Notes: generated from the sequence alone by a model not told the origin. A stretch of 64,000 nt of DNA from a virus (IMGVR_UViG_3300045016_000151:18078-82077); one strand, 5' to 3'. Positions 23,379 through 25,827 are shown, numbered from the stretch's first letter. A program made the numbers and translations.

Positions 23379-24527
23379 AAAAATTTTGCATTTTAGCAAA
23401 ATATTTTGTATATTATTAATATGAACAATTATTATTACTCAGAAAAAGAAAAATCTTTAATTAAAAAATTATATCCTATTACAAGTACTAAAGTTTTAGC
23501 CAAACGCTTAGGAGTAAAGCCTAAGACGTTAAATAACCGAGCGCTTCAATGGGGGATATTTAAAAAGAATAAATGGTTAGCACCCGAGGTACAGTTTCTT
23601 ATAGATAATCATTTAAAAATGAGTCCTGCTGAAATCGCGAAGACATTAAAACGTGAAATTATGTCAGTAAAAAATAAAGCGACAAAATTACACTTATATT
23701 TTCGACGCTGGACTAAAGAAGAAACAGATCATCTAAGAAAAGTTTATCGAACCGGAGGCTTCAAAGCATTTCATGCTAAATTCCCGGACAAAAGTTTTTC
23801 GACAGTTAGCGCCAAAGCACGTACAATGCGGTTACATGGTACAAAATGGTGGTCAACAACAGATGTAAAGTTTCTAAAAAAGAATTATACCAAAATAAAA
23901 CATTCAGCGCTGGCAAAAATATTAGGTAAAACCAGGGCGGCCGTAGATCATAAATTAACGCGATTAGGGTTGACGCAAAATAATACATCTTATCTTGAGA
24001 ATGATTTAAAAATTTATTTGAATTCTCAAAATATACACTTCAATGTACAAGTACGTATTGCCTCTTATCGAGTTGATTTTTTATTAGATAATGATGTTAT
24101 TATAGAAACTAACGGATCTTATTGGCACTGTGATAGACGTATTTTTCGTAAACCAATAAACATAAAACAGAGAAAAGTATTAATAAAGGACCGTCGTAAA
24201 TACAAGTTATTACGTTCCAAAGGATATAGGCTAATTATCCTGTGGGAAAAAGATATAAATGAAGATTTTTCACGAGTTGCTAAAGGCATACAAGCCGTAC
24301 TTGATGGTGACATCAAGGAATATAATTCAGCAAAATCGGTGAAGACTTAATTGTTAATACCGAGGTAAACAATCTAATTACGAAAGGTAGATTGTCACTG
24401 TAACGCGTAGATAGTGAATAAATATAATCTATCCAAGAGTGCTGAACATCTCTAGAGATGAAAATGTACGCTGAACTATAAGGAAACTTATAGAAGTCAA
24501 GATAATAAACTTGACGATAACACATTG
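23379..24527 (+). mobile_element. Group I-like intron 1 carrying a homing endonuclease ORF. The 3' core has P7 (GCGTA/TACGC), P8 (CATCT/AGATG), P9 (CTATAAG-GAAA-CTTATAG) and P9.1
   Basis: Core shared with intron 2, with compensatory base changes; GNRA loop in P9. Exact boundaries are inferred from alignment with intron 2. Confidence 0.6.
23406..24350 (+). CDS. Intron-encoded homing endonuclease with a Vsr-like PD-(D/E)xK nuclease domain (DFLLDNDVIIETNGSYWHCD) and N-terminal tandem W-x-E/K-x-L repeats that probably bind DNA
   Basis: Translation motifs read directly; a paralogue sits at 24667. Confidence 0.7.
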   Translation: MYIINMNNYYYSEKEKSLIKKLYPITSTKVLAKRLGVKPKTLNNRALQWGIFKKNKWLAPEVQFLIDNHLKMSPAEIAKTLKREIMSVKNKATKLHLYFRRWTKEETDHLRKVYRTGGFKAFHAKFPDKSFSTVSAKARTMRLHGTKWWSTTDVKFLKKNYTKIKHSALAKILGKTRAAVDHKLTRLGLTQNNTSYLENDLKIYLNSQNIHFNVQVRIASYRVDFLLDNDVIIETNGSYWHCDRRIFRKPINIKQRKVLIKDRRKYKLLRSKGYRLIILWEKDINEDFSRVAKGIQAVLDGDIKEYNSAKSVKT

Positions 24528-24623
24528 GGAACAGAATTCGAGCCCCCGTTAGACTGGGCGAGGGTTAAAATTGGTGATGAAAAACAGTGGAAAAAGGCTG
24601 ATATAATATTTATAACAGATGGT
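24528..24623 (+). CDS. vWA protein, exon 2 (GTEFEPPLDWARVKIGDEKQWKKADIIFITDG). Joining it to exon 1 gives the GGT motif; the exon ends in the conserved ITDG
   Basis: Open frame between the two introns encodes the vWA beta-D strand motif. Confidence 0.6.
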
Positions 24624-25827
24624 CCCAAAAATTGCTTTTAATCAAAACTTTTAGTATATTATTTATATGGGAAAGCATTGGACAGAACAAGAACTAAATA
24701 TACTAAAAGATCAATATAATTGTAAAACACCAAAAGAATTATCAAAAATACTTAATCGAACATACACGGCTATCCGAGATAAAGCCGAAAATCTAAAACT
24801 TCGAAGCTATAAAACATGGTCTGAAAAAGATATACAGATACTTAAAGAAAATTATGAGTATGGAAACTGGAATTTTTTGACCAAGGCTTTAAAGCGAAAA
24901 AAAGCTGCTATAACAGCATATGCTAGAAAATTTAAACTTGTAAAAAGAACTAGACCTAATATAGCATGGGCGGAAAAAGATCTGTGGTTTCTAAAAGAAA
25001 ATTATGCAATCATGCCGAATAGGGAATTATCTTTACAGTTAAATAAAAGCATTTCGGCATTAACTACAATCGCATATTCTTTAGATCTACACAAAAATAA
25101 TGGTCCGAAACGAAATCAAACTTACTGTTTGTGGTCGAAGAAAGATGTAACACTTTTAAAAAAGTGGTACAAAAGACTAGATGTAAAAAGTCTGGCAATT
25201 TTATTGAGACGAAGTACCGCAAGTATACATCATAAACTTCAAAAATACGGTATGAAGTTGTTATCATTGCCTCAGTATACATCTTCGTTGGAAGCGAACA
25301 TGAAGAAGATATTAAAAGAACTAAAAATTCCGTTCGAACATAACGTCAAAATTGATCGTTGGCAACTAGATTTTTTAATAGATAAAAAAATAATTTTGGA
25401 AATGCACGGATCGTATTGGCACGGAGATAATCGATTTTTCTCGGATAAAACTAATAAACAACTGTGCACAATAGAGAAGGATTTTAGAAAGAAAAAATAC
25501 TTTCTTTCAAAAGGATATAAGTATATAGTAGTTTGGGAATATGATTTTTATAACGATATTGAAAAGATTAAAACAGATTTAAGAGCCGTCTTGAATAGTA
25601 ATATTCAAGAGTACGATTCGGCAAAAACGGTAAATACCCTTTAGGGCAATACCGTGCTAAATATAGTAATAATATACTATCTCAGTGTAGAGACTACGAG
25701 GTGAACCTAATAAAAGAATATAATCCTCGCATGAGTGCCGAACATCTATTTTTTAGATGAAGATATAGTCCGAACTATGAAGCAATTCATAGAAACGAAG
25801 ATAAAGAGCTTCGTGGTAACATAATTG
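24624..25827 (+). mobile_element. Group I-like intron 2 carrying a homing endonuclease ORF. The 3' core has R-like AGACTA, a P7.1/7.2-like hairpin (CGAGG/CCTCG), P8 (CATCT/AGATG), a canonical S element (AAGATATAGTCC), P9 (CTATGAA-GCAA-TTCATAG) and P9.1
   Basis: The group I S consensus sequence is present verbatim, with a matching P7 partner. Features resemble the IA subgroup. Confidence 0.65.
24667..25644 (+). CDS. Intron-encoded Vsr-like homing endonuclease, paralogue of the one at 23406 (DFLIDKKIILEMHGSYWHGD); four N-terminal W-x-E-x-D/E-L-x-x-L-K-x-x-Y repeats
   Basis: Translation motifs read directly. Confidence 0.7.
   Translation: MGKHWTEQELNILKDQYNCKTPKELSKILNRTYTAIRDKAENLKLRSYKTWSEKDIQILKENYEYGNWNFLTKALKRKKAAITAYARKFKLVKRTRPNIAWAEKDLWFLKENYAIMPNRELSLQLNKSISALTTIAYSLDLHKNNGPKRNQTYCLWSKKDVTLLKKWYKRLDVKSLAILLRRSTASIHHKLQKYGMKLLSLPQYTSSLEANMKKILKELKIPFEHNVKIDRWQLDFLIDKKIILEMHGSYWHGDNRFFSDKTNKQLCTIEKDFRKKKYFLSKGYKYIVVWEYDFYNDIEKIKTDLRAVLNSNIQEYDSAKTVNTL

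What the first reader, a model, noticed from the sequence alone, without database searches (positions are those of the whole stretch)
23406..25644. Two paralogous Vsr-fold (PD-(D/E)xK) homing endonucleases with tandem W-x-E-x-(D/E)-L DNA-binding repeats
Intron-borne homing endonucleases with a Vsr-like catalytic core (E..G.YWH.D) are rare; the best-known example is the phage-intron enzyme I-Bth0305I. Here there are two diverged copies, each with four N-terminal repeats of about 25 aa that resemble helix-turn-helix modules. They may be useful as new-specificity nucleases.
Basis: partly seen in the sequence, partly recalled or inferred. Interest (0 to 1): 0.6.

Follow-up and report, generated by a model that had tools for sequence, protein, structure and literature searches.

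The report
Two intron-borne Vsr-like homing endonucleases
A phage vWA gene is interrupted twice, 96 bases apart, by self-splicing group I introns, and each intron carries a homing endonuclease of the known Vsr-like "EDxHD" family (prototype I-Bth0305I) with four Myb-like DNA-binding repeats; the feature is real and cleanly built, but it is a new member of a known kind.

Summary
The finding is real, and its interpretation is essentially right.

**The two proteins.** ORFs 23421..24350 (HEG1, 309 aa) and 24667..25644 (HEG2, 325 aa) are full-length homologues (31% identity, E 3e-41).
- Both predicted structures match the I-Bth0305I catalytic domain (3R3P, TM 0.78-0.79) and E. coli Vsr best.
- All EDxHD catalytic residues are present in both.
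- The N-terminal halves hold four real repeats. Each repeat is a three-helix Myb/SANT/GcrA-like bundle of 44-56 aa, not 25 aa.

**The introns.** Each ORF sits in a group I intron (23379..24527 and 24624..25827) of the vWA gene that follows a MoxR ATPase gene.
- Intron 2 matches Rfam Intron_gpI (62 bits).
- Across 11 related introns, 98.5% of cells in helices P2-P9.1 pair, and 44 of 57 pairs show compensatory changes.
- An intron-less vWA homologue (88% aa identity) is colinear across both junctions.

**Layout and spread.**
- The ORF lies in loop L1, and its last ~20 codons encode the IGS and P2-P5.
- A sigma70-like promoter precedes each ATG.
- Relatives carry the same intron family at five vWA sites.

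Cleavage and splicing are inferred, not shown. Verdict: new member of a known kind, of moderate interest.

The parts
20977..22122 (+). MoxR-type AAA+ ATPase gene, the upstream partner of the vWA gene (context)
   Evidence: Pfam bpMoxR E 3.5e-46, AAA_5, AAA_lid_8
22119..23378 (+). vWA gene exon 1. It ends ...YFENG on a GGT codon.
   Evidence: Spliced product matches Pfam VWA_2 over the whole profile (1-107/107), E 4.6e-8. Colinear with the intron-less homologue P0009/L010.
23379..24527 (+). Group I intron 1 (1149 nt), insertion site B (FENG|GTEF). U precedes the 5' splice site and the last base is G.
   Evidence: Junctions. Homologous to intron 2. Helices covary. No Rfam hit of its own.
23386..23414 (+). 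Sigma70-like promoter inside intron 1 (TTGCAT-17 nt-TATATT). The HEG1 ATG lies 6 nt after the -10 box (inferred).
   Evidence: The same layout occurs in 8 of 9 HEG-bearing related introns.
23421..24350 (+). HEG1, a 309-aa EDxHD/Vsr-like homing endonuclease (an alternative TTG start lies at 23406)
23430..23984 (+). HEG1: four Myb/SANT-like three-helix repeats (aa 4-50, 51-94, 95-141, 142-188)
23985..24347 (+). HEG1 Vsr-like nuclease domain. Catalytic residues E193, D219, E229, N231, H236, D257.
24294..24527 (+). Intron 1 ribozyme core: IGS GCCGU 24294..24298, then P2-P9.1. P7 is 24405..24409 with 24467..24471. It overlaps the last 57 nt of HEG1, and the stop codon lies in L5.
24528..24623 (+). 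vWA exon 2, 96 nt / 32 aa (GTEFEPPLDWARVKIGDEKQWKKADIIFITDG), with no start codon of its own
24624..25827 (+). Group I intron 2 (1204 nt), insertion site C (ITDG|ESAV)
   Evidence: Rfam Intron_gpI 62.2 bits, E 1.1e-15, at 25571..25792. Junctions. Covariation.
24632..24660 (+). Sigma70-like promoter inside intron 2 (TTGCTT-17 nt-TATATT). The HEG2 ATG lies 6 nt after the -10 box (inferred).
24667..25644 (+). HEG2, a 325-aa EDxHD/Vsr-like homing endonuclease
24673..25266 (+). HEG2: four Myb/SANT-like three-helix repeats (aa 3-48, 49-98, 99-154, 155-200)
25282..25641 (+). HEG2 Vsr-like nuclease domain. Catalytic residues E209, D235, E245, H247, H252, D272.
25585..25827 (+). Intron 2 ribozyme core: IGS GCCGUC 25585..25590, then P2-P9.1. 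P7 is 25692..25696 with 25766..25770. It overlaps the last 60 nt of HEG2, and the stop codon lies at the L5/P5 boundary.
25828..26028 (+). vWA exon 3 (ESAVSGQWLENF...SDI, then stop)

Best explanation
The vWA gene of a large phage (partner of a MoxR ATPase) carries two related mobile group I introns, 96 nt apart. They sit at the codons for the conserved GGT and TDG motifs of the vWA domain.

Each intron encodes a homing endonuclease of the EDxHD family (Vsr-like fold, prototype I-Bth0305I). The protein has four N-terminal Myb/SANT-like helix-turn-helix repeats that hold it on a long stretch of DNA, and a C-terminal Mg-dependent nuclease.

Proposed working (inferred):
1. Each endonuclease gene is transcribed from its own sigma70-like promoter inside the intron, probably as a leaderless mRNA.
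2. In a mixed infection with a related phage whose vWA gene lacks the intron, the enzyme cuts that allele near the insertion site.
3. Recombinational repair from the intron-bearing genome copies intron plus gene into the break.
4. The intron RNA then splices itself out of the vWA mRNA, so the host gene still works.

The endonuclease ORF occupies the loop of P1. Its last ~20 codons double as the internal guide sequence and P2-P5 of the ribozyme, so the end of the protein and the RNA core are locked together.

Shown: fold, catalytic residues, repeats, ribozyme structure, exact junctions, and patchy distribution among relatives. Inferred: cleavage, its site, homing, promoter use and self-splicing.
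For: Protein:
- HEG1 and HEG2 are homologous over their full length.
- Sequence matches to 3R3P and Vsr, to Pfam DUF559 and to the PADLOC 'HEase' and Vsr models.
- AlphaFold2 pLDDT is 83 and 89. Each model has four three-helix bundles plus an alpha/beta domain.
- Top Foldseek PDB hits are 3R3P and 1CW0/1VSR.
- E, D, E, H, D and K are invariant in 10- and 19-sequence alignments that include I-Bth0305I.
- The repeats are significant. They are Myb/GcrA-like in the window's proteins at sub-threshold scores and in profile relatives above threshold.

Introns:
- Rfam Intron_gpI scores 62.2 bits (gathering score 50) on intron 2.
- nhmmer links both introns, E 1e-60.
- On 11 related introns 98.5% of cells pair. 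44 of 57 pairs have changes on both sides, 0 of 500 shuffles reach this, and slid controls pair at 29-39%.
- P1 with a U-G wobble at the splice site forms with an IGS that lies inside the ORF 3' end.
- The spliced product gives a full-length VWA_2 match.
- The intron-less homologue P0009/L010 is colinear across both junctions at protein and DNA level.

Mobility signature:
- Relatives carry different subsets of introns at five sites, an ORF-less derivative, and no intron at all.
- Endonuclease lineages track the site: site B 55-62% identity, site C 44-53%, between sites 31-33%.

Promoter: the -35/17 nt/-10 layout occurs 5-6 nt before the ATG in 8 of 9 HEG-bearing introns.
Against: - No activity data exist: neither cleavage nor splicing was observed.
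- No contig with the exact spliced junctions was found in the metagenome collection.
- Intron 1 does not reach any Rfam score on its own.
- P1 for the site A' introns of relatives is weak (3 contiguous pairs).
- The promoter scan of the region as a whole is not enriched over shuffles (24 found, 17.2 +/- 4.3 expected).
- The repeat HMM does not detect the I-Bth0305I N-terminus (6.3 bits against 6.0 in shuffles), so the DNA-binding parts are not shown to be homologous to the prototype's.
- No clear pseudopalindrome lies at either insertion site, unlike the I-Bth0305I target.
Confidence: 0.85

Rival explanations
1. The introns are real, but one or both endonucleases no longer drive homing. They may be decaying passengers, or may have been kept for another role such as helping the intron fold (maturase) or damaging the DNA of competing phages. 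The introns would then persist by vertical descent.
For: - The homing cycle predicts loss of function once an intron is fixed (review PMC3984707).
- An ORF-less derivative that keeps only the ribozyme-overlapping codons exists in a relative (L014).
- Two introns only 96 nt apart would often be co-converted, which relaxes selection on either gene (inference).
- The 3' end of each ORF is held by RNA constraints whether or not the protein is active.
Against: - Both ORFs are intact.
- All catalytic residues are conserved in both, and in orthologues at 44-62% identity. This implies purifying selection on the whole protein, not only on the overlap.
- Intron presence is patchy among close relatives.
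- An intron-less target allele exists in nature (L010).
Confidence: 0.1
2. The ORFs are ordinary free-standing Vsr-type mismatch-repair nickases, as public annotation calls them. They have inserted into and broken the vWA gene, which is now a pseudogene or a set of separately translated pieces. No splicing is involved.
For: - JGI names them 'G:T-mismatch repair DNA endonuclease (very short patch repair protein)'.
- The whole-window Rfam scan at gathering threshold found no intron.
Against: - A full-length Rfam group I match appears once the search space is reduced.
- Covariation is overwhelming.
- The 32-aa middle exon has no start codon, and it carries the essential GGT...TDG part of the vWA fold.
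- The junctions restore exact colinearity with an uninterrupted homologue.
- The Vsr zinc-ligand cysteine of the GCFWH motif is replaced by Ser in both proteins (alignment), as in I-Bth0305I (PMC3239194).
- NCBIfam vsr scores are 17-24 bits against a cut-off of 98.
Confidence: 0.02
3. The introns reached their several sites in vWA genes not through endonuclease-made breaks but by reverse splicing into vWA mRNA at sites matching the guide sequence, followed by reverse transcription and recombination. The endonucleases would only maintain the introns afterwards.
For: - Four of five occupied sites follow a GGU codon that pairs with the conserved 5'-GCC of the guide sequence.
- Sites A and C share the whole hexamer GAUGGU, and their introns share the guide sequence GCCGUC.
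- A retron-type reverse transcriptase gene lies about 0.9 kb downstream of vWA here and in a relative.
- The pathway is discussed as unproven in PMC3984707.
Against: - Any intron landing by any route must pair with its 5' exon to survive, so the GGU pattern may only reflect selection for splicing.
- Endonuclease lineages are site-specific, as expected for protein-driven homing.
- Retron reverse transcriptases prime on their own RNA and are not known to copy mRNAs (own knowledge).
- There is no direct evidence.
Confidence: 0.1

Closest known systems
I-Bth0305I (Bacillus phage 0305phi8-36 recA intron; EDxHD family; PDB 3R3P; PMC3239194)
   Same: - Encoded in a phage group I intron.
- DNA-binding helix-turn-helix region at the N-terminus and Vsr-like nuclease at the C-terminus.
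- The same catalytic E/D/E/(N or H)/H/D set, and no Vsr zinc site.
- Best structural and sequence match for HEG2, second best for HEG1.
- The vWA gene of this window is itself most similar, among known phages, to genes of Moorella phage MTATph1 and of 0305phi8-36.
   Different: - The host gene is vWA, not recA.
- There are four 44-56-aa Myb/SANT-like repeats instead of two NUMOD2-like motifs, and the repeat HMM does not detect the I-Bth0305I N-terminus.
- The ORF lies in L1 and runs into the IGS and P2-P5, whereas the I-Bth0305I ORF interrupts P5 (PMC3239194).
- Catalytic-domain identity is only 30-34%.
- No pseudopalindromic target is evident.
E. coli Vsr very-short-patch repair endonuclease (1VSR, 1CW0)
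   Same: Same core fold and metal-binding acidic and histidine residues. It is the top Foldseek hit for HEG1.
   Different: - Vsr is a single-domain T:G mismatch nickase with a zinc site.
- These proteins lack the zinc-ligand cysteine of the GCFWH motif (Ser in both).
- They carry a 200-aa DNA-binding array and sit in introns.
- NCBIfam vsr scores are far below the cut-off.
Acinetobacter phage vB_AbaM_ME3 gp88 ('DNA mismatch endonuclease') and PHROG phrog_323 ('transcriptional regulator, D5-like')
   Same: - Same overall architecture, with repeats plus a Vsr-like domain.
- tblastn of HEG2 to ME3_88 gives E 1e-19 over 81% of the query.
- phrog_323 covers HEG2 residues 3-300, E 3e-25.
- ME3_88 lies just upstream of a short RecA ORF. 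nhmmer with this intron family's core hits right after its stop codon, E 2.5e-14, so it is probably also intron-borne.
   Different: - 28% identity, and only two clearly scoring repeats.
- A different host gene.
- Annotated as a repair enzyme or regulator, not as a homing endonuclease.
Phage T4 td intron / I-TevI type mobile group I introns
   Same: - Subgroup IA-like core with an extra hairpin between P7 and P3'.
- An endonuclease ORF looped out of the ribozyme with its own promoter.
- The ORF end overlaps core sequences, a known arrangement (PMC3984707 figure legend; the T4 details are own knowledge).
   Different: - I-TevI is a GIY-YIG enzyme with its DNA-binding domain at the C-terminus, and its ORF lies in the P6 region.
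- Here the enzyme is EDxHD, the ORF is in L1, and two introns lie 96 nt apart.
Listeria phage B025 gp44 / B054 gp65 and Myb/GcrA-type repeat arrays
   Same: - The same W-[ST]-x-x-E...L...Y three-helix repeat (77.7 bits against 6.0 in shuffles; tblastn E 4e-8).
- Relatives found by the profile pass Pfam Myb_DNA-binding and GcrA.
   Different: Those proteins have no nuclease domain, or are fused to HNH nucleases or SNF2-type helicases instead of a Vsr-like domain.

Membership tests
EDxHD (Vsr-like) homing endonucleases | Catalytic domain with the Vsr-like alpha/beta nuclease fold | tested here: met
   AlphaFold2 models plus Foldseek against the PDB. HEG2: 3R3P E 3.6e-5, TMt 0.78; 1CW0 E 1.2e-4. 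HEG1: 1CW0 E 2e-4; 3R3P TMt 0.79. Sequence hits.
EDxHD (Vsr-like) homing endonucleases | Conserved catalytic residues: Glu, Asp (Vsr D51 / I-Bth D196), His (Vsr H69 / I-Bth H213), Asp (Vsr D97 / I-Bth D222) | tested here: met
   Invariant columns E209, D235, E245, H252, D272 (HEG2 numbering) in an alignment that includes I-Bth0305I. HEG1 equivalents are E193, D219, E229, H236, D257. Residue roles are taken from PMC3239194.
EDxHD (Vsr-like) homing endonucleases | Encoded within a self-splicing intron or intein (or free-standing in a phage) | tested here: met
   Both ORFs lie inside group I introns.
EDxHD (Vsr-like) homing endonucleases | N-terminal NUMOD-type helix-turn-helix DNA-binding region homologous to that of I-Bth0305I | tested here: inconclusive
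   The domain order is the same, and tblastn aligns HEG1 residues 24-296 to I-Bth0305I (E 1e-5). But the repeat HMM does not score the I-Bth0305I N-terminus above shuffles. The repeats here are Myb/GcrA-like.
EDxHD (Vsr-like) homing endonucleases | Site-specific double-strand cleavage next to the intron insertion site, acting as a homodimer | not testable with these tools
   Needs purified protein and an intron-less vWA substrate.
Group I self-splicing introns | Conserved core P3-P9, including the P3/P7 pseudoknot | tested here: met
   Intron 2: Rfam RF00028 62.2 bits against gathering score 50. Both introns: 57 pairs, 98.5% of cells paired, 44 pairs with compensatory change, 0/500 shuffles. 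Intron 1 alone has no Rfam hit, but it matches the family HMM at E 1.4e-61.
Group I self-splicing introns | U-G wobble at the 5' splice site within P1, and a terminal G at the 3' end | tested here: met
   The exons end in ...GGU and the introns end in ...AUUG. IGS GCCGU(A/C) pairs with ACGGU (intron 1) and GAUGGU (intron 2).
Group I self-splicing introns | Removal restores an intact host reading frame | tested here: met
   The spliced ORF is 518 aa with a full VWA_2 match. It is colinear, without gaps, with the uninterrupted homologue.
Group I self-splicing introns | Guanosine-dependent self-splicing | not testable with these tools
   No spliced-junction contig was found in the metagenome collection. 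An in vitro assay is needed.
Myb/SANT-like (GcrA N-terminal-like) helix-turn-helix repeats | Three-helix bundle with the W...E...L...Y first helix, scoring above the Pfam threshold | tested here: inconclusive
   The three-helix bundles are modelled with confidence. Single repeats reach only E 0.009-0.05 for Myb_DNA-binding, Myb_DNA-bind_6 and GcrA, and 24 bits against 27 for HTH_50. Relatives retrieved with the profile pass Myb_DNA-binding and GcrA thresholds.
Vsr mismatch-repair endonuclease (as publicly annotated) | NCBIfam/TIGR00632 equivalence, and the zinc-binding Cys/His motif | tested here: not met
   TIGR00632 scores 23.5 and 17 bits against a cut-off of 97.85. The Cys of the Vsr GCFWH motif is Ser in both proteins (alignment).

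The most novel reading that the evidence does not exclude
One lineage of group I intron has colonised five separate sites within about 300 nt of a single protein-coding gene (vWA) in related phages.
- Four of those sites follow a GGU codon that pairs with the intron's conserved 5'-GCC guide sequence.
- Two sites share the full hexamer GAUGGU, and their introns share the guide sequence GCCGUC.
- A retron-type reverse transcriptase gene lies just downstream.

This could be a natural record of RNA-level transposition (reverse splicing plus reverse transcription) into a protein-coding gene. That pathway so far has only circumstantial support, from rDNA introns. The Myb-repeat EDxHD endonucleases would then have adapted to each new site afterwards.
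Probability: 0.1. Interest if true: 0.7.

Novelty: new member of a known kind. Interest (0 to 1): 0.4.

Why it matters
- Only one EDxHD homing endonuclease (I-Bth0305I) has been characterised. These two enzymes, and their site-specific orthologues at 44-62% identity, give natural pairs of related enzymes with different known target sites in one gene. That is useful material for learning how this family reads DNA.
- The DNA-binding part is an array of four Myb-like repeats. The same repeats occur fused to HNH nucleases and helicases, which suggests a widespread and largely unannotated modular DNA-binding unit in phages.
- The locus corrects public annotation. The proteins are called 'Vsr mismatch repair endonuclease' or 'transcriptional regulator, D5-like', and the vWA gene is called as three fragments.
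- The set of relatives shows several stages of the homing cycle side by side: empty allele, ORF-less intron, and five occupied sites.
- None of this changes current concepts.

Tried and rejected
- **Rfam on large spans.** Rfam at gathering threshold on the whole window, and at E<=10 on 3.4 kb, found no intron. The speed filters miss it, and a 301-nt search found intron 2. The same small search on intron 1 found nothing, so intron 1 rests on homology and covariation.
- **Known phages.** Megablast of the locus against known phages gave no match.
- **Pseudopalindromic target.** A search for a target like that of I-Bth0305I around both insertion sites gave at best 5 of 7 half-site matches, off-centre, so it was not used.
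- **Repeat HMM against other proteins.** It does not score above shuffles on the I-Bth0305I N-terminus or on the site A' endonuclease of L001.
- **Generic promoter scan.** The region is not enriched over shuffles. The promoter proposal rests instead on conservation of position in related introns.
- **Exact spliced junctions.** Neither junction was found in the metagenome contig collection, so there is no transcript-level support.
- **Other introns of this family in the window.** nhmmer found only the two. A third S-element-like string at 6522 has no support.
- **Free-standing split gene.** This reading was rejected because exon 2 has no start codon and the ribozyme is intact.
- **P1 near the 5' splice site.** P1 formed with intron bases just after the splice site was considered first. 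It was rejected for lack of pairing in intron 2, in favour of the guide sequence inside the ORF 3' end.
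Full report
**What is at the coordinates**

Two same-strand ORFs fill 23406..25644.
- HEG1 runs 23406/23421..24350. HEG2 runs 24667..25644.
- They are homologous over their whole length: BLASTP gives 31% identity over 323 columns, E 3e-41.
- HEG1 most likely starts at ATG 23421 (309 aa). That ATG aligns with the HEG2 ATG in the conserved upstream sequence, and public gene calls use it.
- Base composition drops to 31-32% G+C across the segment, against about 37% around it.

**The nuclease domain**

Sequence evidence:
- HEG1 passes the Pfam DUF559 gathering score (26.3 against 20.6 bits). Both proteins weakly match REase_MTES_1575.
- Against PDB sequences, HEG2 matches 3R3P, the catalytic domain of I-Bth0305I, at E 5.5e-8.
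- HEG1 matches E. coli Vsr (1CW0, 1VSR) at about 2e-4 and 3R3P at 4.7e-4.
- PADLOC's 'HEase' model matches both (3e-8 and 3e-10).

Structure evidence:
- AlphaFold2 models built on alignments of natural homologues have mean pLDDT 82.9 (HEG2) and 89.0 (HEG1). The C-terminal domain is alpha-beta-beta-beta-alpha-beta-alpha.
- For HEG2, Foldseek against the PDB ranks 3R3P first (E 3.6e-5, target TM 0.78), then Vsr.
- For HEG1 it ranks Vsr 1CW0 first (E 2e-4), then 3R3P (target TM 0.79).

Catalytic residues:
- In an alignment with I-Bth0305I, the residues that the I-Bth0305I paper (PMC3239194) names as catalytic are invariant.
- In HEG2 these are E209, D235, E245, H252 and D272. In HEG1 they are E193, D219, E229, H236 and D257.
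- The position of Vsr H64 / I-Bth N208 is N in HEG1 and H in HEG2.
- The Cys of the Vsr zinc motif (GCFWH) is Ser in both, as in I-Bth0305I.
- NCBIfam's Vsr model scores far below its cut-off.

These proteins are therefore EDxHD-family nucleases, not repair Vsr enzymes.

**The repeats**

- Both proteins have four copies of W-[ST]-x-x-[ED]-[ILV]-x-x-L-x-x-x-Y, followed by two more helices.
- An HMM built only from the HEG2 repeats finds four units in HEG1 (57 bits in total), and the reverse search gives 75 bits. The best of 1000 shuffles scores 11 bits.
- Each unit is 44-56 aa and is modelled as a three-helix bundle.
- Single repeats give only sub-threshold Pfam hits, but these are consistent: Myb_DNA-binding, Myb_DNA-bind_6, GcrA and HTH_50.
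- A profile of the family searched against 1.84 billion representatives finds 20,725 proteins at E<=1e-3 and 649 at E<=1e-30.
- Roughly two dozen of the best 150 match the profile end to end at about 310-340 aa, so they share the architecture.
- Others are repeat arrays fused to HNH nucleases or SNF2-type helicases, and these pass the Pfam Myb_DNA-binding and GcrA thresholds.
- Among sequenced phages, PHROG phrog_323 ('transcriptional regulator, D5-like') covers HEG2 almost end to end (E 3e-25).
- Acinetobacter phage ME3 gp88 has the same layout next to recA. Listeria phage B025 gp44 has the repeats alone.
- The repeat HMM does not detect the N-terminus of I-Bth0305I. Homology of the DNA-binding parts to the prototype is therefore not shown.

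**The host gene and the introns**

Gene structure:
- Upstream lies a MoxR-type AAA+ gene, followed by an ORF that ends abruptly inside a vWA domain.
- Reading the sequence gives this layout:
  - exon 1: 22119..23378
  - intron 1: 23379..24527
  - exon 2: 24528..24623 (96 nt)
  - intron 2: 24624..25827
  - exon 3: 25828..26028
- The spliced 518-aa protein matches Pfam VWA_2 over the whole profile (E 4.6e-8). The unspliced pieces do not.

Junction check:
- An uninterrupted homologue (P0009, 88% identical) aligns without gaps across ...YFENG|GTEFEPP... and ...FITDG|ESAV....
- Its DNA (L010) is colinear across both junctions.
- Both insertion sites are in the most conserved vWA motifs.

Ribozyme evidence:
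- Rfam finds a full-length group I match (62.2 bits, gathering score 50, E 1e-15) at 25571..25792 once the search space is small. Larger scans miss it.
- Intron 1 gets no Rfam score, but it is plainly homologous.
- I collected nine further introns of the same family from vWA genes on metagenomic contigs and aligned the 11 cores.
- For a hand-drawn structure of P2, P3, P4, P5, P6, P7 (pseudoknotted with P3), a P7.1-position hairpin, P8, P9 and P9.1:
  - 98.5% of 605 cells are standard pairs;
  - 44 of 57 pairs show changes on both sides;
  - no shuffle of 500 reaches any measure;
  - sliding the partners by 1-3 columns drops pairing to 29-39%.
- The 5' exons end in U and the introns end in G.

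**An unusual layout**

- The guide sequence that pairs with the 5' exon lies about 1 kb downstream of the 5' splice site, inside the 3' end of the endonuclease ORF and directly before P2.
  - In intron 2 it is GCCGUC at 25585, pairing with GAUGGU.
  - In intron 1 it is GCCGU at 24294, pairing with ACGGU.
- The whole ORF therefore sits in the loop of P1.
- Its last 57-60 nt also encode the IGS, P2, P3, P4 and P5, with the stop codon in or at the edge of L5.
- This explains why the C-terminal motif AVL-S-I-EYDSAKTV is far better conserved than the rest of these proteins.
- It also explains why an ORF-less derivative in a relative (L014, 299 nt) keeps exactly those last codons.
- A short ORF-less intron in L018 has its guide sequence GCCGCU only 11 nt from the splice site, pairing with AGCGGU. 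This confirms the P1 assignment.
- Overlap of endonuclease ORFs with core sequences is a known arrangement (PMC3984707).

**Expression (inferred)**

- Between the 5' splice site and the ATG, 8 of 9 ORF-bearing introns have TTG(A/C)NN, exactly 17 nt, then TANNNT, with the ATG 5-6 nt further on and no Shine-Dalgarno sequence.
- The pattern occurs only 21 times on both strands of the 64-kb window.
- This suggests an intron-internal sigma70-type promoter and a leaderless mRNA.
- The generic promoter scan of the region is not significant on its own.

**Signs of mobility**

Related vWA genes carry this intron family at five sites:

| Site | Junction | Carried by |
|---|---|---|
| A0 | DSSG\| | L018 |
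| A | SMDG\| | L014 |
| A' | within the Ile codon of PEI-W | L001, L015, L018 |
| B | ENG\|GT | window, L015, L018 |
| C | TDG\|E | window, L001, L014, probably P0005 |

- One allele (L010) has no intron at any of these sites.
- Endonuclease lineages follow the site:
  - site B enzymes are 55-62% identical;
  - site C enzymes are 44-53% identical;
  - enzymes from different sites are 31-33% identical;
  - site A' enzymes are shorter (250-254 aa); the one examined (L001) has a cysteine-rich N-terminus and no repeat that scores above shuffles.
- That is what site-specific homing endonucleases should look like.
- So 'paralogous' is correct, but the two genes diverged long ago. They are not a recent tandem duplication.

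**Comparison with what is known**

- The closest characterised system is I-Bth0305I. It is a homodimer that footprints about 60 bp and cuts next to the intron insertion site in phage recA (PMC3239194).
- The same: fold, catalytic set, domain order, phage group I intron.
- Different: host gene, type and number of DNA-binding repeats, ORF position in the ribozyme, two introns 96 nt apart, and no evident pseudopalindromic target.
- EDxHD is an accepted sixth homing endonuclease family.
- This is a new member of a known kind with some variant features.

**Not shown**

- Cleavage, homing, promoter use and self-splicing are all inferred.
- No exact spliced junction was found in assembled metagenome contigs.

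**Verdict**

- Observation: partly confirmed, with the repeat length and the HEG1 start codon corrected.
- Interpretation: supported.
- Interest: moderate (0.4).
- Most novel reading not excluded: the five-site spread, mostly after GGU codons that match the guide sequence and next to a retron-type reverse transcriptase, records reverse-splicing transposition. I put that at about 10%.

Noticed in passing
window 26241..27963: A retron-type reverse transcriptase gene lies at 26947..27963 (PADLOC RT_XIII 3e-71; NCBIfam retron St85 RT 216 bits, just under its 235 cut-off). It is preceded by a ~65% G+C non-coding island (about 26280..26450) in a 36% G+C genome. The island folds into a 13-bp stem, ACGCGAUUUCCAG paired with CGUGGAAAUCGCGU, at about 26281..26362. 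No Rfam family matches. An RT also follows vWA in the relative L002. This is a possible phage-borne retron (msr-msd plus RT) next to MoxR-vWA.
   Followed up: partly
L018 382..1556; L014 155..453; L001 3756..4682; L015 ~1116..2020: Related vWA genes carry the same intron family at three further sites (A0 after DSSG, A after SMDG, A' within PEI-W). L018 has a 23-nt micro-exon between two introns. Four of the five sites overall follow a GGU codon that matches the 5'-GCC of the guide sequence.
   Followed up: partly
L014 155..453: This 299-nt ORF-less intron retains only the last ~35 codons of a site-A'-type endonuclease, the part that overlaps the ribozyme. An 11-nt near-repeat (AATCCGGAGAT / ACCCCAGAAAT) flanks it. 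That suggests the 5' splice site moved 11 nt relative to site A', together with a one-base change in the guide sequence (GUCGUC to GCCGUC).
   Followed up: partly
L014 ~1725..1810: A 43-nt tandem duplication spans the end of the endonuclease ORF and P3-P4 of the ribozyme in the site C intron of this relative. It possibly uncouples the protein's C-terminus from the RNA core.
   Followed up: no
L011 (Acinetobacter phage vB_AbaM_ME3) 2369..3700: ME3_88, annotated 'DNA mismatch endonuclease', has the same repeat-plus-Vsr-like architecture and lies just upstream of a short 'RecA' ORF. The intron-core HMM of this family hits right after its stop codon (3344..3532, E 2.5e-14). It is probably an unannotated recA group I intron with an EDxHD endonuclease.
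   Followed up: partly
window 2361..2433: A tRNA gene (Rfam tRNA, 65 bits). It is the only Rfam hit at gathering threshold in the whole window.
   Followed up: no
window 20977..26028 versus known phages: The nearest known relatives of the vWA protein are in Moorella phage MTATph1 (44%) and Bacillus phage 0305phi8-36 ORF063 (34%), and the gene is uninterrupted in both. 0305phi8-36 is also the source of I-Bth0305I. The exact HEG proteins occur on contigs up to 215 kb, so the window probably comes from a jumbo phage of a Firmicute-like host.
   Followed up: partly
window 488, 2254, 5924, 7856, 30536, 34650 (+ strand): Besides the two intron sites, these are the only other plus-strand matches to the TTG(A/C)NN-17-TANNNT pattern in the window. 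They may mark host-type promoters of this phage.
   Followed up: no
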